From Terriglobia bacterium (GTDB lineage: Bacteria; Acidobacteriota; Terriglobia; JAJPHL01; JAPKYU01): a stretch of DNA of 64,000 nt. Where the stretch lies: the NCBI GenBank assembly GCA_965206645.1, contig CBDBKE010000003.1:608001-672000 (forward strand), given 5' to 3'. Made by a program: the position numbers and the translations under genes. Under the pieces are notes generated by a model. That model was not told where the DNA came from. It saw nothing but the letters and a program-made list of their open reading frames with translations, and did no database searches. This document shows positions 38,597 to 51,823 of this stretch, one piece after another (the stretch's first letter is position 1; each line of letters begins with the position of its first letter).

Positions 38597-39757
38597 TTGA
38601 GCGGTCCCCCGCATCGCACCGCGCTGCATGCCGTGCACAAGCGGATGGGCGCCCGGATGGTGCCCTTCGGAGGCTGGGAGATGCCGCTCCAGTACAGCGG
38701 CATCGTGGAAGAACACCTGGCGGTCCGCACGCGCGCCGGTCTGTTCGACGTCAGCCACATGGGCCAGATCGAAGTGCGGGGCCGCGACGCCCTGCGCCTG
38801 GTGCAACACGTCACTTCGAACGATGCGGCCCGCCTGGCTATCGGGCAGGCGCAGTACAGCGGCCTGATGTACCCGCAGGGCACGCTGGCGGACGACCTGC
38901 TGGTGCATAAGCTGGCCGATGACCACTTCCTGCTGGTGGTCAATGCAGCCAATCAGGAGCGCGACTTCAACTGGATTTGCGAGCAGAACCGCTTCCACGC
39001 CGAAGTGTGCAACACCGGCGCCCAGTATTCCCAGCTGGCCGTGCAGGGCCCGCAATCTACGTCCATCTTGCAGAGGCTGACCGACACCGACCTGGGCGCT
39101 CTCGGTTACTACTGGTTTGCGCGCGGCGCCGTGGACGGGGCAGAATGCCTCCTGGCGCGCACCGGCTACACTGGTGAAGACGGCTTTGAACTCTACTTCG
39201 CGCCGTCGGAATCCGAGCGCCTCTGGTACAGGCTGCTGGAAGTGGGGCGCGGGCACGGCCTGGTCCCCTGCGGACTGGGGGCGCGCAACACTCTGCGCCT
39301 GGAAGCCAAGATGGCTCTTTACGGGCATGAAATTGACGAAACCCACACACCGCTGGAAGCCGACCTCGGCTGGATCTGCAAGTTGGACAAGGGCGAGTTC
39401 CTGGGCCGGGAGACCCTGGTGCACCAGAAGCAGCACGGGGTGCGCCGCCGCCTGGTCGGCTTCCAAATGACCGAACGCGGGATCGCCCGAGACGGCTATC
39501 CGGTGTATGTGGAGGGTACCGAGGTCGGCTACGTCACCAGCGGCTCGCCCGCCCCTTTCCTGCGAACGAATATCGGGCTGGCCTACCTGCCGTCAGAGCT
39601 GGCGCAGGTGGGTGGGGAAATCCGGATCGGGGTCCGCAACCAGCGCGTCGCGGCGCGCATTGTCGAGACGCCCTTTTACAAGAGGAAGCGGCCAAACAAA
39701 CACGAGGCCAAGCCGGGGTCAAACAAACACGAGGCGAAGCCGGACGGCACCAAATAA
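38597..39757 (+). CDS. gcvT: Glycine cleavage system aminomethyltransferase T
   Basis: MVPFGGWEMPLQY, LFDVSHMG, RTGYTGEDGFE, GLGARNTLRLEA. Confidence 0.97.
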   Translation: MSGPPHRTALHAVHKRMGARMVPFGGWEMPLQYSGIVEEHLAVRTRAGLFDVSHMGQIEVRGRDALRLVQHVTSNDAARLAIGQAQYSGLMYPQGTLADDLLVHKLADDHFLLVVNAANQERDFNWICEQNRFHAEVCNTGAQYSQLAVQGPQSTSILQRLTDTDLGALGYYWFARGAVDGAECLLARTGYTGEDGFELYFAPSESERLWYRLLEVGRGHGLVPCGLGARNTLRLEAKMALYGHEIDETHTPLEADLGWICKLDKGEFLGRETLVHQKQHGVRRRLVGFQMTERGIARDGYPVYVEGTEVGYVTSGSPAPFLRTNIGLAYLPSELAQVGGEIRIGVRNQRVAARIVETPFYKRKRPNKHEAKPGSNKHEAKPDGTK

Positions 39758-39758
39758 A

Positions 39759-40154
39759 ATGGCGGCCTATCCCCCCAATTGCCGCTACACGCGCGAGCAC
39801 GAGTGGATTCGAGTGGAAGGCGAGACCGGCACCGTCGGCATCACGGACCATGCCCAGAAGCAGTTGGGCGATATCGTGTACCTGGAGTTGCCTCGCGTCG
39901 GTGACCGCTTCCAGGCCGGTCAGCCCCTGGGCACGGTAGAGTCGGTCAAGGCGGTCTCGGAAATTTTTGCCCCGGTCAATTGCGAGGTCCTGGACGCCAA
40001 TGAAAAGCTGACCGGCAGCCCTGAGCTGCTCAACCAGGATCCGCACGGGGAGGCCTGGCTGGTCAAGGTCCGCCTGATGAACCCCGCTGAGCTGGCAGAT
40101 CTGCTCAGTGCCGAGCAGTACGAAGGCTATATCGCGGAGGAGGAAGAACAGTGA
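39759..40154 (+). CDS. gcvH: Glycine cleavage system H protein
   Basis: YTREHEW, VGITDHAQ..LGDIVY, VESVKAVSE lipoyl site. Confidence 0.97.
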   Translation: MAAYPPNCRYTREHEWIRVEGETGTVGITDHAQKQLGDIVYLELPRVGDRFQAGQPLGTVESVKAVSEIFAPVNCEVLDANEKLTGSPELLNQDPHGEAWLVKVRLMNPAELADLLSAEQYEGYIAEEEEQ

Positions 40155-40227
40155 AGAGCGGTGCCTGAAGAGTGAAGGAAGAGTGAAGGAATCAAAGCCC
40201 GTTCACTCTTCATCGGCACTCTTCACT
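40151..40227. repeat. Inverted GTGAAGA-repeat hairpin between gcvH and gcvPA
   Basis: agtgaagagcggtgcctgaagagtgaa ... ttcactcttcatcggcactcttcact. Confidence 0.7.
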
Positions 40228-40234
40228 CAAGAAC

Positions 40235-41536
40235 ATGCGCTATCTGCCCAAGTCGGAGTCGGAACGGCAGCAGATGCTGGAGTCGCTGGGACTCAGGCAC
40301 GTGGAGGAGCTGTTTGCCTCGATCCCCGACGAGGTCCGCTTACAGCGGGGGCTGAACATTCCCGATGGCATCTCTGAATTTGACCTCGTGCGGTATTTCC
40401 GCGAGTGGGCGCGGGAGAATGCGAGTGGTTATGTATCGTTCCTCGGCGCGGGGGTGTACCCGCATTTCCGGCCGGTGGTGGTGGATGCGCTGATCTCGCG
40501 CAGCGAATTTTACACCGCCTACACGCCCTACCAGGCGGAGATCTCCCAAGGCACGCTGCAATCCATCTTCGAGTTCCAGACCATGATCTGCCAGCTGACC
40601 GGGACCGAGGTGGCCAACGCCTCGATGTACGACGGCTCTAGCGCGCTGGCCGAGGCGGTACTGATGGCGGCGCGGATAACCCGGCGCTCGAGGGTGCTGG
40701 TGGCGCGCTCCGTCCACCCGGAATACCGGCAGGTGCTGGCCACCTACATACGCCATCAAGGGATTGAGGTGCGGGAGCTGGAATACGACCGCCGGGACGG
40801 CACGCTCGCACCGTTTTCGGTGCCGGAGGATCTGGCGGCGGTCGTCGTACAGTCCCCGAACTTCTTCGGTGTAGTGGAGGACGTGGAGCGGGCGGCGGAA
40901 ATCGCCCGCGCTTCCGGGGCGCTGCTAGTGGTGGCAATCGCAGAACCGGTCTCGCTGGGCGTGCTGCGGCCCCCGGCCGCTGCCGACATCGTCGCCATGG
41001 AGATTCAGGGCCTGGGTATTCCGGCCAGTTACGGCGGTCCCTACGCCGGGGTGATCGCCACGCGGGAGAAGTACGTGCGCAGCCTCCCCGGGCGCCTCGT
41101 CGGGCAGACCACCGACGTCGAGGGCCGCCCCGGCTTCTGCCTGACGCTGGCCACCCGCGAGCAGCATATTCGCCGCGAGAAGGCCACGTCCAACATCTGC
41201 ACCAACCAGGCGCTGTGCGCTCTGGCGGCTACCATCTTCATGACCGTCTACGGCAAGGAAGGCTTGCGGGAGCTGGCCCGCCACAACCTGGCCAAGGCGC
41301 ACTGCGCTGCCTCCGGCCTGAATCTACAGTTCTCCGGGCCTTTCTTTAACGAGTTCGTAGTGACCCTGAGGCCAGGCGAAGCCGACAGGAAGCTTCAGGC
41401 ACTGCGTGAGAAGAAGATTCTGGGCGGCCTGGACCTGAGGCCGTTCTACCCGGAACTGGGCGAGGCGCTGTTGCTGTGCGTGACCGAGGTCCACACCAGG
41501 GAGCAGCTTGACCAACTGGTCGAAGTGCTAGCATGA
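40235..41536 (+). CDS. gcvPA: Glycine dehydrogenase subunit 1
   Basis: TAYTPYQAEISQGTLQ, NASMYDG, REQHIRREKATSNICTNQ. Confidence 0.97.
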   Translation: MRYLPKSESERQQMLESLGLRHVEELFASIPDEVRLQRGLNIPDGISEFDLVRYFREWARENASGYVSFLGAGVYPHFRPVVVDALISRSEFYTAYTPYQAEISQGTLQSIFEFQTMICQLTGTEVANASMYDGSSALAEAVLMAARITRRSRVLVARSVHPEYRQVLATYIRHQGIEVRELEYDRRDGTLAPFSVPEDLAAVVVQSPNFFGVVEDVERAAEIARASGALLVVAIAEPVSLGVLRPPAAADIVAMEIQGLGIPASYGGPYAGVIATREKYVRSLPGRLVGQTTDVEGRPGFCLTLATREQHIRREKATSNICTNQALCALAATIFMTVYGKEGLRELARHNLAKAHCAASGLNLQFSGPFFNEFVVTLRPGEADRKLQALREKKILGGLDLRPFYPELGEALLLCVTEVHTREQLDQLVEVLA

Positions 41537-43122
41537 AGAAAGCCGCCTCCCACGTCAGCCACCATCTCTGCCGGCGCCACATCAGCCAAGATGAAGGGCT
41601 GATCTTTGAGCGCTCCTCGCCGGGCAAGCACGCCTGGCAGTTGCCGGCGCTGGAGGTGCCGGAGGTGGATCCGGTCGCGATGCTGGGTCAGGCCAATGTG
41701 CGGGCCGAAATTGCCGACTTCCCCGAGGTCAGCGAGGTGGAACTGGTGCGCCACTTCACTCGCCTCTCAAGCTGGAACTACGGGGTGGAAACGGGACTCT
41801 ACCCGCTGGGTTCCTGCACCATGAAGTACAACCCGAAGGTCAATGAAGTGGTGGCGCGTCTGGAAGGTCTTGCTGACCAGCACCCCTATCAGCCCGATGA
41901 GCTGGCCCAGGGCTGCTTGAAGATCCTGCGGCAGCTCTCCACTTACCTGCTGGAAATCACCGGTATGGATGCGGTGACGTTGCAGCCGGCTGCCGGCGCC
42001 CAGGGCGAGCTGACGGGCATCCTGCTGGTGCGCGCCTATCTTGAAGCGCAGGGGAACCCACGAAAGAAAATCCTGATCCCGGATTCGGCGCACGGAACCA
42101 ATCCGGCGACGGCATCGATAGCCGGGTACACGGTCGAGAACGTCCGCTCCAACGGTGACGGCCGCGTGGATCTGGAAGCGCTCGAGAAAGCTGTCACCGA
42201 ACAGGTTGCGGCGCTGATGATCACCAACCCCAACACGCTGGGGATTTTTGAACAGCAGATCGCCTCCATTGCTGATCTGCTGCATGCCCGGGGCGCCCAG
42301 CTCTACATGGACGGCGCCAACATGAATGCTCTGCTGGGCAAGACCCGTCCTGGCGACTTCGGGGTGGACGTGATGCACCTGAACCTGCACAAGACCTTTT
42401 CCACCCCGCACGGCGGCGGCGGTCCCGGGGCCGGCCCGGTTTGCGTGAAGAAACACCTGGAGCCGTACCTGCCGGTGCCGGTTCTGGAAGAAGGGCCGCA
42501 TGGCCGGCTGCGCCTGAACCACCAGCGGCCCAACTCCATTGGGCGGGTGCGCGCCTTCGCGGGCAACTTTGGCGTGCTGGTGCGCGCCCTGGCTTATGTT
42601 CTGGCGCACGGCGGCAACGGCCTCAGGGCGGTAGCTGAAGACGCCGTGCTCAACGCCAACTACATCCGCAGGCACCTGGAGGACGTTTACGAGCTGACGT
42701 ACCGCCAGGCGTCGCTCCACGAGTGCGTCTTCAGCGACCGGCTCCAGGCGCGCCACGGCGTGCGTACCGGCGACATCGCCAAGCGCCTCATTGATTACGG
42801 CTTTCACCCCTACACCGTCAGCTTCCCGCTGATCGTTCAGGGCGCGCTGATGATCGAGCCGACGGAAACCGAGAGCAAGCAGGAGCTGGATTTCTTCATT
42901 GAGGCGATGCGCGCGATCGCCCGTGAGGCGGAAGAAGAACCGGAGACGGTGCGCAACGCGCCGCACGCTACCCGGGTGGGCCGCCTGGACGAAGTGGCGG
43001 CCGCGCGCCGGCCCATCCTGCGCTGGAAACCGCAGCTGCCCGTCGCCCAGAGCCCCGTGACCGAGCCCGACGCCACCGAACAGCAACAGCCGGAGGAATT
43101 GACCGCAAGAAAATCTCCCTAG
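41533..43122 (+). CDS. gcvPB: Glycine dehydrogenase subunit 2
   Basis: YPLGSCTMKYNP, PDSAHGTNPA, LNLHKTFSTPHGGGGPG, MIEPTETE. Confidence 0.97.
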   Translation: MKKAASHVSHHLCRRHISQDEGLIFERSSPGKHAWQLPALEVPEVDPVAMLGQANVRAEIADFPEVSEVELVRHFTRLSSWNYGVETGLYPLGSCTMKYNPKVNEVVARLEGLADQHPYQPDELAQGCLKILRQLSTYLLEITGMDAVTLQPAAGAQGELTGILLVRAYLEAQGNPRKKILIPDSAHGTNPATASIAGYTVENVRSNGDGRVDLEALEKAVTEQVAALMITNPNTLGIFEQQIASIADLLHARGAQLYMDGANMNALLGKTRPGDFGVDVMHLNLHKTFSTPHGGGGPGAGPVCVKKHLEPYLPVPVLEEGPHGRLRLNHQRPNSIGRVRAFAGNFGVLVRALAYVLAHGGNGLRAVAEDAVLNANYIRRHLEDVYELTYRQASLHECVFSDRLQARHGVRTGDIAKRLIDYGFHPYTVSFPLIVQGALMIEPTETESKQELDFFIEAMRAIAREAEEEPETVRNAPHATRVGRLDEVAAARRPILRWKPQLPVAQSPVTEPDATEQQQPEELTARKSP

Positions 43123-43481: not shown

Positions 43482-46418
43482 ATGAACAAACTGGGACAAT
43501 CAACAATCCTTCCGATTTGCCTGGTCCTGGCAGCCATCTTGATTGCCCAGAACCCGCCGGTGCAACCCCCGGGCTCGGCCGATTCGGCGCAGGGCGAGAC
43601 GCCTGCGGCCTCGGCTCCCAAGCGCGCCGGAACCACGGATGCAGCACGGCTGGAAGCAGTGGAGGAGTTGTCCGAATCTTTGGCCAACGACCTATTGGAT
43701 CTGTCGCTCGCCGTGCGGGATCGGGAGGCGGAGCGAGTGGCCGAGTACGTTCCAGCCCAGTTGTCGGCTACCGCCTTCTGGTCCACTCCGCTGCCGGTTA
43801 TGAAGGAAGTGAGATGGGTCGCCAGGCACGGATGGACGGCGGATGATCACAGTTCCGGGCACTCCTCGCAACGCAGCGCGCGCTCCCGCGCGGTGAAACA
43901 CCGCATGCCCAGGGAGGAGTTCTTGGGGGCGTTGTTCGCCTTCCTGGATCACTTCCAGGAGATCGAAGACGCGCGCTTCAAGGTGTCGGGAGCCCAATTC
44001 GCTGATTCGGCTGATGTCGAGATGGAGGCGAATGTTCCCACCGCCAAAGTGGGTTCCGAAGGAACAGCACGCCTGAAGTTTTACCTGGTGGGCCGCGACA
44101 CTGACGGGCAGCGCGAGTGGACGCGGGGAGCGGCCGGGGTCGCGGTCCGTCGGGCGGCCAACGGGCGTTGGCAGTTTGAATCGTTCGAACTGCTGAGCCT
44201 GGATTCCATGCTGGCCACCACCGATCTGTTCTCGGAAGTCTCCGTGCCGGTCGGCGTGGCCGCCAGCCTGCCTTCTTTTGCGGAGCGGGGAGGACCCAGC
44301 TTCGCCTGGTACGGGGCGGCGGCCGGGGATTTCAATCTTGACGGCTGGATCGATCTGTTCGTGACCTCGCCGGATCGCAATTATCTTTACTTGAACGACG
44401 CACAGGGCCGGTTCCGTGACGCCTCCCTGGAAGCGGGCGTGGAGCTGCTCGACCGCGGGGTGGCGCCCCTGGTTCTCGATTACGACAATGACGGCGATTC
44501 CGACGTGTTCCTCTCCTCGGTTGGGCACCAGATGCTTTTGGAGAACCGGCAGGTGCCGGACGGGAAGCTGGAACTTCGCGATGTTTCCTGGAAAGCCGGG
44601 GTGGGCCGGCAGGCGATAGGGTTCAGCGCCGTGGCTGGGGACGTGAACGGCGACGGGTATACCGACATCTACGTTGCCTGCTACAACCACTTCGGCCGGG
44701 TGACGCCGGATTCCTGGTACCGGGCCACCAATGGCACGCCGAACTTGCTGTACATCAATCAGGGCGATGGCACCTTCCGCGAGGAAGCGGCCCGCTGGGG
44801 CGTGGATGACCGGCGCTGGAGTTACGCAGCCGCCTTCGCTGACGTCAACAGGGACGGGCGCCTGGACCTGTACGTGGCCAACGACTTTGGCGAAAACGCC
44901 CTGTTCATCCACCACGGAGACAAGTTCGTGAATGAGGCGCGGGAGCGCGGCGTTGTGGACCCCGGCAACGGCATGGGCGTCTCCTTCGGCGATTACGACA
45001 ACGACGGAGAGCTCGATCTGCACGTCACCAACATGTCCTCGACCGCAGGCAACCGCATCGTGTCGCGGCTGTTTCCCGGCGCTGGCGCCGGGAACAACGT
45101 GTACCGGAAGCTGGCCTCCGGCAACAACCTGTATCGGAATGCCGGCAACGGCTACTACCGGGACGTGACCGCCGAGAGCGCTGGCTTCTCCGGCGGATGG
45201 GCCTGGGGGGGGGGGTTCCTCGACTTCGATAACGATGGCTGGGAGGATCTGCTGACCCCCAATGGGTTCCTCTCCGGCAGTTCCATGAAGGACACCTGAA
45301 GTCAGTTCTGGCGTCAGGTCGTGGCGCAAGACAAGAATCCGAAACAGGGGCAGGGCGCGCTCCGTGCCGACCAAATGCGCCTGATCGCCCAACAGGGATT
45401 CTCATTTAGCGGGTACGAACGCGATCTGCTCTCCCTGAACCTGGGCACGGGCAAGTATTTGGACGTCTCCGGAATCTCTGGAATTGACTCGATTAGCGAT
45501 GGCCGCGCGGCGGTGTTTGCCGATTTCGATAACGACGGCGATCTGGACGTGTTTCTAACCACCATCCAAGGGGAAGCACACCTGCTGTTTCGCAACAATA
45601 TCGGGCAGGCGAATAACTTCCTGCGGATCGTGTTGGAAGGCAGCCGGGAGCTGGGCCGCGACGCCTATGGGGCTGTGGTCCGCCTGCGGACCTCAGCCGG
45701 GACGATGACCAAGATCAAAAGCGGCGGCTCAGGCTTCATCGCGCAGCATGACCCGCGCCTGCTATTCGGGCTGGGGTCGGAGGAGCGTGCCGAATGGATC
45801 GAGGTGTCCTGGCCCAATGGGGAAGTCGAGCGATTCCAGGCCGACGCCCGGGCCGGCTCGACGCTGCTGCTGCGCGCCGGAGCCGGGCGCGCCGAAGTGC
45901 TCGCGCTCGGCCGCGCCCAACTGCCTGATCCGCTCACCCGCGCGGAAACCTTTGCCCGCAAGCTGAAGATCAGCGTGGGCAAACCCATGCCCGATCTGGC
46001 TCTGAAAACCTTGGACGGAGAGGCAACTTCCCTCTACAAGCAGCTCCGCCCGGGCCGCCGGGCGCTCATCAATGTCTGGGCCACCTGGTGCGCGCCCTGC
46101 ATCCTGGAGATGCCGGAGCTGGAAAAACTCCGGCCGCAGCTTTCGGCCAGCGGGGTCGACTTGATCGGCCTCAACGTGGATACCGAACCCGACGCCGACA
46201 TCGGCCGGTTTGTAGCCGACACCGGCATCAGCTATCCGATCTATATCGGTGGGATTCCGGCTGTCGAACAGTTGTATGCTTCCGATGAACTCTCCGTGCC
46301 GTTGTCGGTTCTGCTGGACGAGAACGGCGCCGTAGCCGAAGTGATTCCCGGCTGGTCCGAGGAAACCCGCCGCCGCTTCTCTGCGCTGGCCGGCAACCAA
46401 GCCAGCGACGGGACGTAA
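43482..46418 (+). CDS. FG-GAP/ASPIC-UnbV (CRTAC1-like) plus TlpA thioredoxin fusion with one in-frame UGA (candidate selenoprotein, 978 aa if read through)
   Basis: ORFs 43374-45299 and 45321-46418 share a frame; repeated D-x-D/N-x-DG-x-x-D motifs continue on both sides; C-terminal NVWATWCAPC. Confidence 0.75.
45307..45331 (+). promoter_or_regulatory. Bacterial SECIS-like hairpin
   Basis: UCU-G-GCGUCA [GGUCG] UGGCGC-A-AGA; loop begins after 17 nt from the UGA. Confidence 0.55.
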
Positions 46419-46449: not shown

Positions 46450-46484
46450 TTGACAAGCTGGATCACAATATGTATATACATCTA
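46450..46484 (+). promoter_or_regulatory. Promoter with palindromic MarR-type operator
   Basis: TTGACA at 46450-55; perfect palindrome ATGTATATACAT (46470-81) over the -10 region. Confidence 0.65.
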
Positions 46485-46487
46485 ACT

Positions 46488-46955
46488 ATGGCTGCCGAGA
46501 CGGTAAGGGAACGGCAGAAGGGCCTGCCAGGGCTGCTGCCGCTGCCCTGCGCCTGCGCCAACCTGCGCCGGGCCGCGCGGGCTGTGACGCAGCTTTATGC
46601 CGAGGAGTTTCGACCCATCGGACTGGAGCCGACGCAGTTCACCTCGCTGATGGCGCTGGAGACCTGGGGGGAACTCACCCAGGGCCAACTGGCCGAGAGA
46701 CTGGCCATTGACAGCACCACGCTGACCCGTACGCTAGCCCCTTTGCGCCGCCGCGGTTGGATCCAGGCCAGGCCCGGCCCGGACCAGCGCGAGCGCCGCT
46801 TGCGGCTGACACCAGCCGGCCGCCGACAGCTTGCACGTGTCCGCCCATATTGGGAACGGGCGCAGCGGCGCCTGCGCCGAACCCTGGGCGAAGACGGCTG
46901 GAACCGGCTGCAAGCCGGTTTGGTCGACGTGACACGAGCAGTGCAGAGGGCATGA
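46488..46955 (+). CDS. MarR family transcriptional regulator (CAC..LRRAAR type)
   Basis: CACANLRRAARAVTQLY, TQF, LA..L.ID.TTLTR.L, D.R.R...LT..G. Confidence 0.93.
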   Translation: MAAETVRERQKGLPGLLPLPCACANLRRAARAVTQLYAEEFRPIGLEPTQFTSLMALETWGELTQGQLAERLAIDSTTLTRTLAPLRRRGWIQARPGPDQRERRLRLTPAGRRQLARVRPYWERAQRRLRRTLGEDGWNRLQAGLVDVTRAVQRA

Positions 46956-46970
46956 TTTTTTTGCGACATA

Positions 46971-46986
46971 TAGATGTATGCGCATC
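46971..46986 (+). promoter_or_regulatory. Second operator-like site before the Fe-S/SCP2 gene
   Basis: TAGATGTATGCGCATC versus rc of first site TAGATGTATATACAT. Confidence 0.5.
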
Positions 46987-47005
46987 CTATTTCCGAGAGG
47001 CAACG

Positions 47006-48346
47006 ATGCAACTAGCCGAACATCCGACAGTGAAGCAGTTCCAGAAAAACCAGGCGGCAGGTGTGCTGCCGACTCGCCCGGCGAAGATCGAAGCAGCGTG
47101 GCTGCAGGGGCTCTGCCAGGAGGCCGGCGCCGAGGAGGTGGGTTTTGTCGAGCTCGATCGAGAGAAAATCGCGGATCAGCGAGACGATATTCGGGCCGCC
47201 TTTCCCCGCGCCAGGACGCTGATCAGTTTTGTTCTGCGAATGAACCGGGAGAATGTGCGGAGCCCGGCTCGCTCGATTGCCAACCTGGAGTTCCACCATA
47301 CGGGCGACGAGGTGAACGAAGTTGCCCGGCGGATCGTGGCGGCGCTGGAGCGGGAAGGGGTGCGTGCAATGAACGGGGCGATGGGTTTTCCCATGGAAAT
47401 GGACCGCTGGCCCGGCAAGCTCTGGGTGGTGTCGCACAAGCCGGTGGCGGTGGCCGCCGGTTTAGGCCGGATGGGGATTCACCGTAACGTGATTCACCCC
47501 AAGTTCGGCAATTTCATTCTGCTGGGCACGGTGGTCACCGATGCGGAGGTGAGCGAGTACTCCCGGCCCATCGACTACAACCCCTGCCTGGAATGCAAGC
47601 TGTGTGTTTCGGCCTGCCCGACCGGGGCGATCGGTCCCGACGGGCATTTCAACTTCGCGGCCTGCTATACGCACAACTATCGGGAGTTCATGGGCGGATT
47701 CACCGACTGGGTGGAAAACGTCGCCGACAGCAAGAACGCCCAGCAGTACCGAGAGAAGGTCAGCGACCCGGAAACCGTCTCGCTGTGGCAGAGTCTGGGG
47801 TTCGGGCCCAACTACAAGGCCGCCTACTGTCTCTCGGTCTGTCCTGCCGGCGAAGATGTGATTGCACCGTTTCTCACCGAGCGGAAGCAGTTCCTCGAGG
47901 ACGTCGTGAAACCTCTGCAGAGCAAGCCAGAAACGGTCTACGTACGACCCGGTTCCGATGCCGTGGCGTACGTGCAGCGACGTTTTCCTCACAAGAAACT
48001 CAAGGCAGTGGGCAACGGCCTGCGGCCTCTGTCCATCGCGCAGTTCCTGGACGGACTGGGCTTCACCTTCGAGCGGGGTCAGTCGGAAGGCCTCGATGCC
48101 ACCTATCACTTCACCTTCACCGGTGAGGAGGAGCGCAAGGCCACAGTGACCATTCGCCACAAGACGCTGCGCGTCGAGGACGGGCACGTGGGAAAAGCGG
48201 ACCTCCGTCTTCAGGCTGACAGTCGCACCTGGCTCGGGTTTCTCGCCAAAGAGCGGAACCTGGTGTGGGCTTTGCTCAGCCGCAAGATTCGGCTCAAAGG
48301 GTCACCACGACTGTTGGTAGCATTCGGGAAGTGCTTCCCTTCTTAG
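47006..48346 (+). CDS. QueG/reductive-dehalogenase-like 4Fe-4S protein with C-terminal SCP2 domain
   Basis: VSHKPVAVAAGLG.MG.H.NVIHPKFG.F..LG, CLECKLCVSACPTGAI, YCLSVCP; tail TYHFTFTG...ALLSRKIRLKG. Confidence 0.85.
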   Translation: MQLAEHPTVKQFQKNQAAGVLPTRPAKIEAAWLQGLCQEAGAEEVGFVELDREKIADQRDDIRAAFPRARTLISFVLRMNRENVRSPARSIANLEFHHTGDEVNEVARRIVAALEREGVRAMNGAMGFPMEMDRWPGKLWVVSHKPVAVAAGLGRMGIHRNVIHPKFGNFILLGTVVTDAEVSEYSRPIDYNPCLECKLCVSACPTGAIGPDGHFNFAACYTHNYREFMGGFTDWVENVADSKNAQQYREKVSDPETVSLWQSLGFGPNYKAAYCLSVCPAGEDVIAPFLTERKQFLEDVVKPLQSKPETVYVRPGSDAVAYVQRRFPHKKLKAVGNGLRPLSIAQFLDGLGFTFERGQSEGLDATYHFTFTGEEERKATVTIRHKTLRVEDGHVGKADLRLQADSRTWLGFLAKERNLVWALLSRKIRLKGSPRLLVAFGKCFPS

Positions 48347-49366: not shown

Positions 49367-50595
49367 GGTGGTCTCAACCCATCGACGCAACACTTTGCCT
49401 TGAAAGGAGGAGGTGGAGTGTATGCGGATGAAGCAAAGAGCTCGTCGCGGTTACACGCTGGCGGAACTGGAGGAGGTGTGGGATCGGTGGAAACGAGGGG
49501 AGTCGCTCAAGTCGATTGGACGAGTGTTTTGTAAGCAGCCATCGTCTGTTTACCATCAGCTTGCTCCGTACGGAGGCATCCGTCCTCGGCCACCACGCCG
49601 TTCATGTTGGGCACTGACGTTGTCGGAGCGCGAAGAGATCTCTCGAGGCATTGCGGCACATCAATCGATACGATCCATCGCCGGGTTGCTGGGTCGCTCA
49701 CCATCGACGGTGAGCCGGGAGATTCGGCGGAATGGCGGCGATAATGACTATCGAGCAGCGGAGGCCGATGAGCAAGCCGGGGAGAGGGCCCGCCGGCCGA
49801 AGCGGTGTCAGCTGGTCAAGCATCCACAACTACGACGGGTAGTGGCCAGAAAGCTCAGCATAAACTGGTCGCCTGAGCAGATCGCCAGCTGGCTGAAACG
49901 AGCCTATCCGAAGGATCCGTCCTATCACGTGTCTCACGAGACCATCTACCGCAGCCTGTTTGTTCAAGCCCGCGGTGCGCTGAAGGCAGAGCTGATGCAG
50001 CATCTGCGGTCAAAGCGGACGATTCGTCGATCCCGACATGCAAGTCTGAGAGGCCATGGACGAGGACAGATCACCGACATCGTATCGATCCGTGAGCGCC
50101 CGGCCTCGGTCGAAGATCGTGCCGTGCCCGGTCATTGGGAAGGCGATCTGCTGTCCGGATCGAAGAACAGCCACATTGCGACTCTGGTCGAACGTCATAC
50201 GCGCTACGTGATGCTTACGAAAGTATCCAGCAAGAAAACGGAGACGGTCGTGTCGGCGCTCATCAAGCACGCGAAGAAGCTGCCGACGGAACTGTACAAA
50301 TCTCTGACTTGGGATCGAGGCCTGGAGCTCGCCGAGCATCGACGGTTCACGTTGGCGACCGACATTGACGTATACTTCTGTGATCCTCAGAGTCCATGGC
50401 AGCGCGGTTCGAATGAGAACACCAACGGTCTACTTCGACAGTACTTCCCCAAGGGAACGGACTTGTCGGTGCACTCTCAGGCGCATCTGAACAAGGTGGC
50501 ACGTCAGCTGAACGAACGGCCCCGTCAGACGCTGGAGTTTGAAACTCCGGCAGAACGATTTAACGCTTGTGTTGCATCGACCGGTTGAGCTGGCA
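49367..50595 (+). mobile_element. IS30-family insertion sequence, about 1229 bp, 2-bp duplication CC
   Basis: Ends GGTGGTCTCAACCCATCGACGCAACAC and rc TGCCAGCTCAACCGGTCGATGCAACAC; host frame restored with a 2-bp DR. Confidence 0.9.
49422..50588 (+). CDS. IS30 transposase
   Basis: LGRSPSTVSREIRRN, WSPEQI, SHETIY, GHWEGD, TWDRG.E, PWQRGSNENTNGLLRQYFPKG. Confidence 0.96.
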   Translation: MRMKQRARRGYTLAELEEVWDRWKRGESLKSIGRVFCKQPSSVYHQLAPYGGIRPRPPRRSCWALTLSEREEISRGIAAHQSIRSIAGLLGRSPSTVSREIRRNGGDNDYRAAEADEQAGERARRPKRCQLVKHPQLRRVVARKLSINWSPEQIASWLKRAYPKDPSYHVSHETIYRSLFVQARGALKAELMQHLRSKRTIRRSRHASLRGHGRGQITDIVSIRERPASVEDRAVPGHWEGDLLSGSKNSHIATLVERHTRYVMLTKVSSKKTETVVSALIKHAKKLPTELYKSLTWDRGLELAEHRRFTLATDIDVYFCDPQSPWQRGSNENTNGLLRQYFPKGTDLSVHSQAHLNKVARQLNERPRQTLEFETPAERFNACVASTG

Positions 50596-51044
50596 CCCTC
50601 TTTGCTTTAGCGAGCCTTTACAACGTGAAAATGAACTCTTGCCTACTGCGTCACAAATGATGTCATAGGTTTCACCGCTTTGGGCAAAATCCTCTTTAGT
50701 GTAATCAATGACCTTATCGGCTCCCAGAGACTTCACCAATTCCACATTCGTGGTATTGCATACCCCGGTGACTTCCGCCCCGAAGTGCTTAGCAAGCTGC
50801 ACGGCAGAAGTACCTACCGATCCAGAAGCGCCATTGATTAGGACTTTTTGTCCGCGCCGAATCTTCCCGGTATCTCTTAGGAAAGGCAGTGATGTTAATC
50901 CTCCACCACAGACGCTCGCGGCTTCACCGTAGGTCATATTGGCCGGCTTCAATGCCAGCGCCCCCTCTTCAAGCAGACATACGTACTCGGCATGAGCGCC
51001 AAAAGTGGCAGCGCTAGCTGCAAACACCTGGTCACCTTCTTTAA

Positions 51045-51823
51045 TCTCTTTTCCCATTCTTTGCTGGCGCTCAATCTCGGGCAACAGGAGTTTCTCCCAA
51101 CCCTCGGCACTGTGCACGTTGCCCGGACGGAGCTGGGCCGCCAGACAGTCGCCGTCTCGATTGAACAAAAGCAGCGGGTGATAGCAAGTGGACTCAAAGT
51201 GTCCGTTGTAGGCGCTCTGTTCCTGCTCCCCGTAGACCGGAATCTCGGTTGAGTCCATATCCAGCACCGCTCGGTAGTGCCACTGGAAGGCTTCGACCTT
51301 TCCGATCAGTTCCCGGTTGATCCGGGCTAACCCGACGAAGTTCTCCACCTTCGCCAGCATCTCCGTCTCGAAAGTTTGCAACCTGGAGGTCAGCGCCGCG
51401 CCTCGTTCCCAAGTCTTCTCTGAACCAATCGGCCGAAAGGTCGGGTCTTGCGACAGCCGCTCGGCATCATTGACATCCTCGTATCCAGCTAGGCAACTGT
51501 AGACCGACTGCCGCAGCAAGTCCGCGAAAGCAAACCGAGCATTGTTTGCCCGCGAATCGGTCAGGTGCGCGTCAATGAGTTCGCTGAATCCCAGACGCTC
51601 ATCCAACTCCCGGACCAGAATCAGTCCGCCATTGGAAGTCACTCGTGATCCCTGAAACCCGACTCGCAGAAATTGGTTGAACGACAGCTGGAATCCCTGT
51701 TTTCCGCTCTCACCCATTGGGTTTACGCCTCCGAACGCTCCGATTGATGCTGCAACCAGTATCAATATTGACGTTGGAGGTTAGCTGAAGGTTGCCGCTG
51801 CGTTTTCAAAAAGGAAATCCGGG
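51045..51823 (-). mobile_element. 5' fragment of an IS1380-family element bounded by a 5-bp TTAAA duplication
   Basis: Starts CCCGGATTTCC; transposase N-terminus from 51717 (VTSNGGL..RELDERLG, GYEDVNDA..L..DP, LDMDST, YHPL, LRPGNVHSA) stops mid-protein. Confidence 0.85.

What the first reader, a model, noticed from the sequence alone, without database searches (positions are those of the whole stretch)
43482..46418. Candidate selenoprotein: FG-GAP/ASPIC-UnbV propeller fused to TlpA thioredoxin, with in-frame UGA and SECIS-like hairpin
Seen: the two listed ORFs are in one frame, separated only by TGA 45297-45299; read-through gives GFLSGSSMKDT-U-SQFWRQVVAQD, and FG-GAP motifs (FLDFDNDGWED before, FADFDNDGDLD after) continue across the stop. 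The downstream ORF has no evident RBS. Just 3' is a hairpin GCGUCA[GGUCG]UGGCGC with the loop 17 nt after the UGA. Established: the E. coli fdhF SECIS has a CAGGUC apical region at a very similar distance. Inference: a 978-aa exported protein with Sec in a propeller loop and a WCAPC thioredoxin domain in the same chain, a possible intramolecular redox relay in a family not among the classic selenoproteins. Caveat: the hairpin may be a by-product of WRQVVA codons.
Basis: partly seen in the sequence, partly recalled or inferred. Interest (0 to 1): 0.9.

Follow-up and report, generated by a model that had tools for sequence, protein, structure and literature searches.

The report
New exported selenoprotein: propeller plus thioredoxin
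The in-frame TGA is almost certainly a real selenocysteine codon in a secreted beta-propeller protein fused to a thioredoxin-like domain, a widespread family that genome annotation cuts in two and that I did not find in the latest selenoprotein inventory.

Summary
One frame runs from 43482 to 46418 and is broken only by TGA 45297-45299, with a 6-bp hairpin just downstream.

- The genome has selA, selB, tRNA-Sec and a TGA-containing selD.
- In a 401-genome phylum sample, 66 of 94 homologous hits in 55 genomes carry exactly one stop. It is always TGA, and it sat at the same codon in every hit I fetched.
- 19 named assemblies of Planctomycetota, Verrucomicrobiota, Gemmatimonadetes and Acidobacteria have it too.
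- The hairpin covaries: one pair shows six standard pair types. It is broken in most non-TGA homologues that encode the same WRQVVA peptide, so it is not a codon by-product.
- Cys occupies the site in a minority of homologues.
- 44 of 46 assessable Sec forms keep a CxxC thioredoxin domain. Five related non-Sec forms have lost that CxxC.

This supports, but does not prove, a Sec-to-CxxC redox relay; the substrate is unknown.

No FG-GAP/CRTAC1 selenoprotein appears in NCBIfam or in the 119-family table of a 2026 review. GenBank names the truncated halves "VCBS repeat-containing protein". Selenium incorporation has not been shown directly.

The parts
43482..46418 (+). Whole gene: 978 codons plus a TAA stop, with TGA 45297-45299 read as selenocysteine (U606).
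   Evidence: Two orthologues at 92-94% identity have the same layout. The AF2 model is confident as a single chain, with pLDDT 88.5 and pTM 0.87.
43482..43550 (+). Likely Sec-type signal peptide (residues 1-23, MNKLGQSTILPICLVLAAILIAQ).
   Evidence: Inferred from the sequence: a basic N-terminus followed by a 16-residue hydrophobic core. No signal-peptide predictor was run. Many of the read-through orthologues that start at a Met also begin with a hydrophobic stretch.
43641..44231 (+). N-terminal alpha+beta domain (about residues 54-250) with no Pfam match.
   Evidence: Pfam is silent here. The AF2 model is mostly above pLDDT 90, with one long helix (54-79) and a four-stranded sheet. Several columns are conserved in alignment A2.
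44289..45581 (+). FG-GAP/VCBS beta-propeller blades with DxDxDG motifs, running on both sides of the TGA.
   Evidence: Pfam FG-GAP_3 scores 4.4e-41 over 6 stretches. Foldseek matches murine CRTAC1 9etn_A at E 1.6e-29 with TMt 0.74.
45297..45299 (+). UGA decoded as selenocysteine 606, in the motif D-T-U-S-x-F-W-R. It is the first residue of helix 606-615.
   Evidence: TGA is conserved at this codon in 30 of 30 group-1 loci, 13 of 13 group-2 loci and 19 named assemblies.
45307..45331 (+). SECIS-like stem-loop. The core helix is 45311-45316 paired with 45322-45327, the loop is GGUCG at 45317-45321, and three outer pairs join 45307-45309 to 45329-45331.
   Evidence: Fold. Covariation: 91.7% of cells are paired, 0 of 500 shuffles reach that, and pair 18-28 shows six pair types. 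RNAalifold predicts the core helix on its own.
45663..45845 (+). UnbV_ASPIC domain (residues 728-788).
   Evidence: Pfam PF07593, E 1.7e-13.
45975..46361 (+). TlpA/ResA-like thioredoxin domain (residues 832-960).
   Evidence: Pfam Redoxin at 1.4e-17. PDB sequence hits to ResA 4nmu and TlpA 1jfu. Foldseek TMt 0.78-0.81 to ResA.
46089..46100 (+). The CAPC redox motif (C870, C873).
   Evidence: CxxC is present in 30 of 30 group-1 Sec forms and in 14 of 16 assessable cross-phylum Sec forms.

Best explanation
**What is shown or strongly supported.** The gene at 43482-46418 encodes a single exported 978-residue selenoprotein. UGA 45297-45299 is decoded as selenocysteine by the organism's SelA/SelB/tRNA-Sec/SelD system. 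Decoding is directed by the stem-loop 11-35 nt downstream, whose GGUCG apical loop resembles the loops of E. coli fdhF and of this genome's own selD.

**What is inferred.**
- Sec606 sits at the N-terminus of a helix inserted between blades of a CRTAC1-like FG-GAP propeller.
- It acts as a redox-active selenol.
- After oxidation by an unknown extracytoplasmic substrate (a peroxide, sulfoxide or disulfide-type oxidant), it is re-reduced by the CxPC motif of the fused TlpA-like domain.
- That domain is in turn re-reduced through a CcdA/DsbD-type membrane protein.
- When selenium is scarce, termination at the UGA would release a 605-residue truncated product.
For: **Sec machinery in this genome**
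- selA scores 441 bits.
- tRNA-Sec scores 78.5 bits, and ARAGORN calls it SeC with anticodon tca.
- selB scores 309.5 bits, 342.8 with its C-terminal piece.
- selD scores 354 bits and itself carries one in-frame TGA.

**Conservation of the TGA**
- Two same-genus orthologues keep it.
- In the 401-genome phylum sample, 43 of the 44 closest non-own hits have exactly one TGA. Over all 94 non-own hits the figure is 66, in 55 genomes. No hit has TAA or TAG.
- The TGA is at the same codon in 30 of 30 group-1 loci and 13 of 13 group-2 loci.
- It is at the same codon in 19 named assemblies from four phyla.
- 78 of the 120 listed protein clusters cover the query only up to this codon. All 22 of these that I fetched end in ...DT.

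**Link to Sec use**
- 51 of the 55 TGA-bearing genomes have SelA. The other 4 have tRNA-Sec at 68-76 bits.
- The 5 SelA-negative genomes that hold a homologue have only non-TGA forms.

**The hairpin**
- 91.7% of cells are paired, against 84.4% in shuffles, and 0 of 500 shuffles reach the observed value.
- The covariation score is 0.251 against 0.110. Slid controls pair in 20-71% of cells.
- Pair 18-28 reads CG 24, UA 5, GU 4, GC 3, AU 2, UG 2 and other 2.
- Of 31 non-TGA homologues, only 1 keeps all 6 pairs. Among the 15 with the identical WRQVVA peptide, 11 break pair 18-28.
- selD in the same genome has a 7-bp stem with a GGU loop 20 nt after its UGA.
- The fdhF comparison was checked on the E. 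coli record.

**Both halves are translated as one protein**
- The downstream part shows 63 synonymous against 22 non-synonymous codon differences.
- The AF2 model is one continuous propeller.
- Cys occupies the site in P0002 (same architecture), P0007, P0009 and L117.

**The relay**
- CxxC is present in 30 of 30 group-1 Sec forms.
- It is present in 14 of 16 assessable cross-phylum Sec forms.
- Five related non-Sec forms have CSQS, SAAES, SPPS, SSAS or SPQS in its place.
- The two Sec forms without a thioredoxin domain have a Cys at +2.
- A DsbD_TM protein is encoded at G000:C3:398036-398683.
Against: **Against, or weakening, the Sec reading**
- There is no direct evidence of selenium in the protein.
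- Among 36 untruncated metagenome homologues the site is Ser 10, Arg 9, Ala 4, Cys 3 and seven other residues. The usual Sec/Cys pattern is therefore a minority here.
- The hairpin alone is thermodynamically unremarkable, with z = -1.11.
- No Rfam family matches it.
- RNAalifold supports only the inner 4 pairs.
- L089 fits the helix poorly, and several distant forms use a register shifted by one nucleotide.
- SelA was not found in 4 of the 55 TGA-bearing genomes.

**Against the relay**
- P0010, P0013, P0014, P0018 and P0029 keep a CxxC but have Val, Ser, Leu, Ala or Gln at the site.
- L138 and L167 have the TGA but no thioredoxin domain.

**Limits of the expression evidence**
- The contigs from RNA libraries that span the TGA do not prove transcription, let alone translation.
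Confidence: 0.85

Rival explanations
1. The TGA is a true stop. The locus is two genes, or a split gene whose C-terminal part (propeller remainder plus thioredoxin) starts independently at GTG 45321 or nearby.
For: GTG codons lie 8-9 codons after the TGA, and the ORF listing gives an ORF 45321..46418. Gene callers in public databases treat the locus this way.
Against: - The codons between the TGA and the GTG (S607, W610, R611) are at least 90% conserved in frame, including in non-TGA homologues.
- The stop is always TGA and never TAA or TAG, across 66 hits.
- TGA forms occur only in genomes with Sec machinery.
- The candidate GTG lies in the 3' arm of the conserved hairpin.
- The C-terminal piece would lack a signal peptide, yet it completes the same propeller.
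Confidence: 0.03
2. The UGA is read through by something other than Sec, for example near-cognate Trp or Cys insertion, and the hairpin merely stimulates that read-through.
For: A downstream structure can stimulate read-through (general knowledge). The site tolerates many residues in homologues.
Against: - The hairpin has the size, spacing and G-U-containing apical loop of bacterial SECIS elements, including this genome's selD and E. coli fdhF.
- TGA forms track SelA and tRNA-Sec.
- The close same-architecture homologue P0002 has Cys at the site.
- Sec forms keep a partner CxxC.
Confidence: 0.04
3. The gene is a pseudogene, or the TGA is an assembly or sequencing error.
For: A single in-frame stop is what a fresh nonsense mutation looks like.
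Against: - The same TGA occurs in 55 other genomes of the phylum sample and in 19 named assemblies.
- It is unchanged in contigs of four runs from three other studies, while neighbouring synonymous sites differ.
- The downstream part is under purifying selection.
Confidence: 0.01
4. Sec is real but is not recycled by the fused thioredoxin domain. It might instead bind a metal or cofactor in the propeller, while the TlpA-like domain acts on a separate client.
For: - Five homologues keep CxxC without Sec or Cys at the site.
- Two Sec forms lack the domain.
- Sec is a metal ligand in formate dehydrogenase and in [NiFeSe] hydrogenase, as described in review PMC13188914, section 7.
Against: - 44 of 46 assessable Sec forms have CxxC.
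- All five class-level non-Sec forms with the domain have lost the CxxC.
- In the 30 group-1 loci the sequence downstream of the Sec holds only 2-3 Cys, two of which are the CxxC.
Confidence: 0.15

Closest known systems
E. coli formate dehydrogenase H (fdhF) UGA/SECIS, the textbook bacterial Sec insertion element
   Same: Both have an in-frame UGA followed at once by a coding-region stem-loop. The fdhF apical loop GGUC is at nt 22-25 from the U of UGA; here GGUCG is at nt 21-25. In both, CAGGUC precedes the 3' arm.
   Different: The protein is unrelated, and the stem here is shorter (6 bp plus 3 outer pairs). I did not assess the bulged U that I recall as important for SelB binding in fdhF. 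SelB binding was not tested.
CRTAC1 / ASPIC-UnbV family (murine CRTAC1, PDB 9etn; bacterial 'CRTAC1 family protein')
   Same: It has the FG-GAP propeller plus the UnbV_ASPIC domain. The sequence match to 9etn_A is E 4e-27. The fold match is E 1.6e-29 with TMt 0.74.
   Different: To my recollection, CRTAC1-family proteins have no known catalytic residue, and I found no report of one bearing Sec. This protein adds Sec at the start of a helix, an extra N-terminal domain and a C-terminal thioredoxin domain.
TlpA / ResA extracytoplasmic thiol-disulfide oxidoreductases (PDB 1jfu, 4nmu, 1st9)
   Same: The C-terminal 130 residues have the Redoxin fold and a WCxPC motif at the start of a helix.
   Different: Here the domain is fused to a propeller rather than anchored to the membrane on its own. 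The NCBIfam TlpA and ResA models score far below their cut-offs: 61.3 against 230, and 75.4 against 170.
Neisseria PilB/MsrAB, whose N-terminal TlpA-like domain recycles the fused Msr domains (PDB 2jzr, 2fy6)
   Same: It is an exported fusion of a catalytic domain with a TlpA-like reductase domain. The thioredoxin domain here matches those chains weakly, at E about 5e-4. The recycling role of that domain in PilB is recalled from memory, not tested here.
   Different: The catalytic partner here is a propeller with a single Sec, not an Msr domain, and the domain order is reversed.
[quoted passage not shown]
   Same: They are bacterial selenoproteins that involve a TlpA/Redoxin-type domain.
   Different: In those families Sec sits inside the thioredoxin redox motif (UGC, UxxC). 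Here the thioredoxin motif is all-Cys, and Sec lies about 264 residues upstream in another domain. The WAxxUGC model NF041054 scores 41.5 against a cut-off of 300.

Membership tests
Bacterial SelB/SECIS-dependent selenoprotein | An in-frame UGA conserved at one codon among orthologues, and never replaced by another stop codon. | tested here: met
   66 of 94 non-own hits have exactly one TGA and none has TAA or TAG. The TGA is at the same codon in 30 of 30 group-1 loci, 13 of 13 group-2 loci and 19 named assemblies.
Bacterial SelB/SECIS-dependent selenoprotein | A stem-loop directly downstream of the UGA, with its apical loop about 16-37 nt away and a G in the loop (the bSECISearch-type criteria, recalled from memory). 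| tested here: met
   The loop GGUCG begins 17 nt after the UGA. Covariation is shown and the non-Sec control. selD and fdhF were compared.
Bacterial SelB/SECIS-dependent selenoprotein | The genome encodes selA, selB, selC and selD. | tested here: met
   Among the 55 other TGA-bearing genomes, 51 have SelA and the remaining 4 have tRNA-Sec.
Bacterial SelB/SECIS-dependent selenoprotein | Homologues with Cys at the Sec position. | tested here: met
   P0002, P0007, P0009 and L117 have Cys. That is only 3 of 36 untruncated metagenome homologues; most have Ser, Arg or Ala.
Bacterial SelB/SECIS-dependent selenoprotein | Selenium is physically incorporated at the UGA. | not testable with these tools
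   This needs 75Se labelling or mass spectrometry.
CRTAC1 / ASPIC-UnbV family | FG-GAP repeats plus the UnbV_ASPIC domain, both above the Pfam cut-offs. | tested here: met
   FG-GAP_3 scores 139.7 bits against a cut-off of 26.9. UnbV_ASPIC scores 50.6 against 23.4. The fold matches 9etn_A.
TlpA/ResA-type thioredoxin | Redoxin fold with a CxxC motif at the N-terminus of a helix. | tested here: met
   Redoxin scores 64.3 bits against a cut-off of 26.6. C870 immediately precedes helix 871-889.
TlpA/ResA-type thioredoxin | A score above the NCBIfam cut-off for the TlpA equivalog or the ResA subfamily. | tested here: not met
   The scores are 61.3 against 230 and 75.4 against 170. The domain is TlpA-like, but it is not a TlpA or ResA orthologue.
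Any of the 119 listed prokaryotic selenoprotein families (PMC13188914, Table 1) | A match to a listed family's domain model with Sec in that family's motif. | tested here: not met
   I read the whole table and it has no FG-GAP, VCBS, ASPIC or CRTAC1 entry. The NCBIfam scan gives no selenoprotein model above its cut-off.

The most novel reading that the evidence does not exclude
This would be an undescribed selenoprotein family spread over at least four phyla: Acidobacteriota, Planctomycetota, Verrucomicrobiota and Gemmatimonadota.
- A CRTAC1-type beta-propeller has been turned into an extracytoplasmic redox enzyme. It gained one selenocysteine at the start of a helix, together with a fused TlpA-like CxxC domain that recycles it.
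- It would be the first beta-propeller selenoprotein.
- It would also be the first catalytic clue for the ASPIC/UnbV/CRTAC1 superfamily.
- Sec and CxxC appear to be gained and lost together.
Probability: 0.55. Interest if true: 0.8.

Novelty: new variant of a known kind. Interest (0 to 1): 0.72.

Why it matters
- **Annotation.** Acidobacteriota, Planctomycetota and Verrucomicrobiota are abundant in soil and sea. In the phylum sample, 55 of 400 other genomes carry this gene with the TGA. Public annotation nevertheless splits it, calling the first half a "VCBS repeat-containing protein". The selenoproteomes and selenium demand of these groups are therefore underestimated.
- **Biochemistry.** Most known selenoproteins are thioredoxin-fold or metal enzymes (PMC13188914, section 7). 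A secreted propeller with a lone Sec served by a fused thioredoxin would be a new architecture.
- **A handle on an unexplained family.** It gives a testable entry into the CRTAC1/ASPIC-UnbV family, whose function is unknown. That family includes a vertebrate cartilage protein.
- **A natural experiment.** The correlated loss of Sec and CxxC in relatives shows what the pair is needed for.

Tried and rejected
**Steps that led nowhere or were not decisive**
- Single-sequence folding gave no significance: z = -1.11.
- An Rfam scan of 45200-45450 found only a chance lncRNA match at E 4.9.
- Gene neighbourhood gave no clue. The gcvH/gcvPA/gcvPB genes upstream and the MarR gene downstream were each found next to the gene in one or both same-genus genomes. 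Neither was found within the 1.5-kb flanks of 46 other loci.
32 of its 80 loci have a gap at the site.
- I could not measure the Sec-to-CxxC distance, because model coordinates are not exposed.

**Literature searches**
- Searches combined selenoprotein or selenocysteine with FG-GAP, ASPIC, UnbV, CRTAC1, VCBS and enediyne biosynthesis protein. They gave no relevant paper, judged from listings and abstract starts only.
- Further searches led to PMC13188914, PMC12013277, PMC9312934, PMC2398784, PMC1794560, PMC4807772 and bioRxiv 10.1101/2022.07.06.499078.
- I searched the main text of each for these words and found none.
- I read parts 1 and 2 of section 7 of PMC13188914 in full.
- Supplementary tables were closed. 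Examples are S9 of PMC4807772, the family lists of the GOS paper and the deep-Sep lists. They could still hold this family under a "hypothetical protein" label.

**Explanations considered and rejected**
- Pseudogene or sequencing error.
- A split gene with reinitiation.
- Read-through by something other than Sec.
The evidence is given under the rival explanations.

**Unpublished genomes**
G086 (one TGA row, SelA-positive), G188 (one non-TGA row) and G063 (SelA list only) are flagged unpublished. They enter only the counts. Without G086 and G188 the counts become 65 of 92 hits, in 54 genomes. I fetched no sequence from them.
Full report
**1. The observation**

The window holds one reading frame from ATG 43482 to TAA 46416-46418. 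It is interrupted only by TGA 45297-45299. Read through, it gives a 978-residue protein with ...GFLSGSSMKDT-U-SQFWRQVVAQD... at the break.

DxDxDG-type FG-GAP motifs lie on both sides of the stop. Pfam finds FG-GAP_3 in six stretches, UnbV_ASPIC at 728-788 and Redoxin/AhpC-TSA at 832-960.

The hairpin GCGUCA[GGUCG]UGGCGC occupies nt 15-31 counted from the U of UGA, which is window 45311-45327.

There the loop GGUC lies at nt 22-25. Here GGUCG lies at nt 21-25.

On its own the hairpin is not statistically remarkable. It folds at -10.8 kcal/mol with z = -1.11, and 30 of 200 shuffles fold as well. No Rfam family matches it.

**2. Can this organism make selenoproteins?**

Yes. The window is G000:C3:608001-672000. 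The genome encodes all four components:
- selA at 441 bits.
- tRNA-Sec at 78.5 bits, which ARAGORN calls SeC with anticodon tca.
- selB at 309.5 bits, 342.8 with its C-terminal piece.
- selD at 354 bits, itself with one in-frame TGA.

The selD UGA is followed by a 7-bp stem with a GGU loop that starts 20 nt downstream. That makes it an in-genome reference element of the same style.

**3. Is the TGA conserved?**

*Close relatives.* Two same-genus genomes, at 94% and 92% protein identity, keep the TGA.
- Between the window and the 92% orthologue, the part downstream of the TGA differs at 63 synonymous and 22 non-synonymous codons out of 372. The upstream part differs at 85 and 58 out of 605. Both halves are therefore under purifying selection.
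- The 20 codons just after the stop carry no synonymous change, where about 3 would be expected. This is only a weak hint of constraint on the RNA.

*The phylum sample.* I searched 401 genomes with residues 500-800. Of these, 80 had a hit at E <= 1e-40.

| Set of hits (window's own excluded) | With exactly one TGA | Other |
|---|---|---|
| The 44 closest hits (55-71% identity) | 43 | 1 (G420, which has Ser, codon TCC) |
| All 94 hits | 66, in 55 genomes | 28 with no stop |

No hit contained TAA or TAG.

*Position of the TGA.*
- It is at the same codon, D-[TL]-U-S-x-[FLY]-W-R, in all 30 fetched loci of the close group.
- It is at the same codon in all 13 fetched loci of a second, larger paralogue group with open frames of 925-1535 aa.

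*Other phyla.* A scan of named assemblies found the same TGA in 19 loci. Their titles name:
- Acidobacteria and Pyrinomonadaceae.
- Planctomycetota, Phycisphaerae, Pirellulaceae, Mariniblastus and Planctomycetaceae.
- Roseibacillus, Akkermansiaceae and Verrucomicrobiales.
- Gemmatimonadetes.
- Candidatus Multivorans.

*Protein databases show the same break.* 78 of the 120 best clusters cover the query region only up to this codon. All 22 of those I fetched end in MKDT or MADT. NCBI nr names two of them "VCBS repeat-containing protein".

*Independent sequence data.* Contigs from two runs of other studies and from two metatranscriptome libraries cover the site with the TGA unchanged. One 1030-nt contig from an RNA library spans 45153-45900. 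It differs at the neighbouring synonymous sites 45293, 45296 and 45302, but not in the TGA. These are contigs, so they show presence, not expression.

**4. Does the TGA track Sec usage?**

- SelA was found in 301 of the same 401 genomes.
- Of the 55 TGA-bearing genomes, 51 are SelA-positive.
- The other four (G265, G351, G117, G290) lack a convincing SelA hit. All four have a tRNA-Sec at 68-76 bits.
- The five SelA-negative genomes that hold a homologue (G135, G205, G245, G255, G341) have only forms without a stop.

**5. Is the hairpin a SECIS or a codon by-product?**

*The TGA forms.* I aligned 42 distinct 48-nt stretches starting at the TGA (alignment A1) and tested the six-pair helix.
- 91.7% of cells are paired, against 84.4% in shuffles. 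None of 500 shuffles reached the observed value.
- The covariation score is 0.251 against 0.110, again with 0 of 500 shuffles reaching it.
- Controls with the partner slid by one to three columns pair in only 20-71% of cells.

*The telling pair.* Pair 18-28 joins the third base of the Arg codon to the first base of the Ala/Thr/Ser/Pro codon. It reads CG 24, UA 5, GU 4, GC 3, AU 2, UG 2, with 2 unpaired. In other words, a synonymous position covaries with an amino-acid change.
- The loop's third-codon position varies freely between C, G and U.
- One form, L094, swaps the closing A-U for G-C.
- L095 encodes a different peptide (WNSVVPHW) yet forms a 7-bp stem with a GUGC loop at the same place.
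- RNAalifold independently predicts the inner four pairs and the same loop.

*The control.* I examined 31 homologues without a stop.
- Only one keeps all six pairs.
- Among the 15 that encode the identical WRQVVA peptide, pair 18-28 is standard in 4. In the other 11 it is a G-G or A-G mismatch.

The hairpin is therefore maintained specifically where the TGA is present.

*Distant forms.* In the cross-phylum forms the helix is sometimes shifted by one nucleotide, with GGUC or GUUG loops. L089 fits poorly.

**6. What occupies the site elsewhere?**

Among 36 untruncated metagenome homologues, the site is Ser in 10, Arg in 9, Ala in 4 and Cys in 3. Leu, Glu and Asp occur twice each, and Val, Met, Thr and Gln once each.
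- The Cys forms include P0002. It is 70% identical over the queried region 520-720 and has the same architecture, thioredoxin domain included.
- L117 also has Cys, codon TGT.
- The flanking residues D604, T605, S607, W610 and R611 are invariant or at least 90% conserved across alignment A2.

So Sec has been placed in a conserved site at a position that is otherwise variable. Sec/Cys alternation exists, but it is the minority pattern. I count this as the main oddity.

**7. Structure**

With a 39-row alignment, AlphaFold2 gives mean pLDDT 88.5 and pTM 0.87.
- The propeller is continuous across the TGA.
- U606 is the first residue of helix 606-615, which lies in an insert between blades.
- C870 immediately precedes helix 871-889.
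- An N-terminal alpha+beta domain (about residues 54-250) has no Pfam match.

The closest solved structures are:
- Murine CRTAC1, 9etn_A. The sequence match is E 4e-27 and the Foldseek match is E 1.6e-29 with TMt 0.74.
- ResA and TlpA, for the C-terminal domain.

Coordinates are not exposed, so I could not measure the Sec-to-CxxC distance.

**8. Mechanism**

*Shown or strongly supported:* UGA606 is a Sec codon served by a downstream SECIS.

*Inferred:* Sec606 is a redox-active selenol recycled by the fused CxPC motif. The argument rests on co-occurrence.

| Forms examined | State of the thioredoxin CxxC |
|---|---|
| 30 close-group Sec loci | All 30 have [WYF]CxPC, 259-295 residues after the Sec; the sequence downstream of the Sec holds only 2-3 Cys |
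| 16 assessable cross-phylum Sec loci | 14 have CxxC |
| L138 and L167 (Sec, no thioredoxin domain) | No CxxC, but a Cys two residues after the Sec (U-x-C) |
| 5 class-level homologues with Ala, Ser or Glu at the site | Thioredoxin-like domain kept, motif degenerated to CSQS, SAAES, SPPS, SSAS or SPQS |
| The 9 full-length Ser forms without the domain (P0003-P0006, P0008, P0012, P0015, P0016), plus the contig-end fragment P0027 | No thioredoxin domain |
| P0010, P0013, P0014, P0018, P0029 (Val, Ser, Leu, Ala, Gln at the site) | CxxC kept: these are the counter-examples |

- The genome has a DsbD_TM/CcdA-type protein that could supply electrons.
- Export is inferred from the N-terminal hydrophobic signal-like segment. 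It also fits my recollection that TlpA-type and FG-GAP/ASPIC proteins are usually extracytoplasmic.
- The substrate is unknown.
- A Thr before the Sec, together with the conserved Trp and Arg, recalls peroxidase-type sites. That is a resemblance from memory, not a test.

**9. Comparison with what is known**

- *Sec decoding.* It works like any bacterial SelB/SECIS selenoprotein and meets every membership feature that can be tested here.
- *The protein.* It is a member of the CRTAC1/ASPIC-UnbV family, with a TlpA-like domain that is not a TlpA or ResA orthologue by NCBIfam cut-offs.
- *Listed selenoprotein families.* It belongs to none. No selenoprotein model in NCBIfam release 20 reaches its cut-off. 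Table 1 of the May 2026 review, with 119 families and subfamilies, has no FG-GAP, VCBS, ASPIC or CRTAC1 entry; I read the table whole.
- *Literature.* Full-text searches and word searches in seven selenoproteome papers found nothing. Supplementary tables were closed and might list the family under an uninformative label.

**10. Verdict**

- I put about 0.9 on Sec decoding.
- I put about 0.55 on the whole picture: an undescribed family with a working Sec-to-CxxC relay.

It is a new variant of a known kind. The decoding is ordinary, but the protein context is new: a secreted beta-propeller with a lone Sec and a fused thioredoxin, spread over several abundant environmental phyla and systematically mis-annotated as two proteins.

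Noticed in passing
window 46470-46955 (+): A MarR-family regulator gene starts 52 nt after the selenoprotein gene, behind a TTGACA...TATATA-like stretch. Its N-terminus carries a C-x-C (LPLPCACANL). It lies next to the gene in one same-genus genome (L035). tblastn did not find it in the other (L034) or within the 1.5-kb flanks of 46 more distant loci.
   Followed up: partly
window 39507-43122 (+): The glycine cleavage genes gcvH, gcvPA and gcvPB lie directly upstream. The gcvPB adjacency is seen only in the two same-genus genomes.
   Followed up: partly
window 49413-51765: Two mobile-element genes sit here: an rve integrase with HTH_38 on the + strand, and a DDE_Tnp_1_4 transposase on the - strand. 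The transposase ORF also carries an ADH_zinc_N match at its C-terminal end, which suggests an insertion into, or fusion with, a dehydrogenase gene.
   Followed up: no
window 46757-48346 (+): A 529-aa ORF has weak 4Fe-4S ferredoxin matches and an SCP2/Alkyl_sulf_C C-terminal match. It overlaps the end of the MarR gene in another frame, so its true start is unclear.
   Followed up: no
window 43641-44231 (residues 54-250 of the protein): This is a conserved N-terminal alpha+beta domain with no Pfam or NCBIfam match. It is folded confidently (pLDDT mostly above 90) and is shared by the Sec, Cys and Ser forms of the family.
   Followed up: partly
G000:C2:761488-762411 (outside the window): selD of this genome is itself a selenoprotein gene (KASG-U-ASKLSPK). 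Its SECIS has a 7-bp stem and a GGU loop.
   Followed up: yes
L083-L095 and L123-L134 (other genomes): A second, larger paralogue group (open frames 925-1535 aa, motif D-L-U-S-F-F-W-R-Q-V-V-[SP]) also carries the TGA and a covarying hairpin. Some genomes hold both groups (G184, G206, G236, G295, G124, G285, G364, G043, G091), and G417 holds two copies of the close group.
   Followed up: partly
L138 and L167 (Pirellulaceae and Planctomycetaceae assemblies): These divergent TGA forms lack the thioredoxin domain but have a Cys two residues after the TGA (U-S-C and U-R-C). In L138 the next stop after 215 codons is again TGA.
   Followed up: no
G000:C3:398036-399315 (outside the window): The only DsbD_TM/CcdA-type gene of the genome lies just upstream of a gene with a thioredoxin-like domain that matches residues 833-953 of this protein. 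It is a candidate electron supply line.
   Followed up: no
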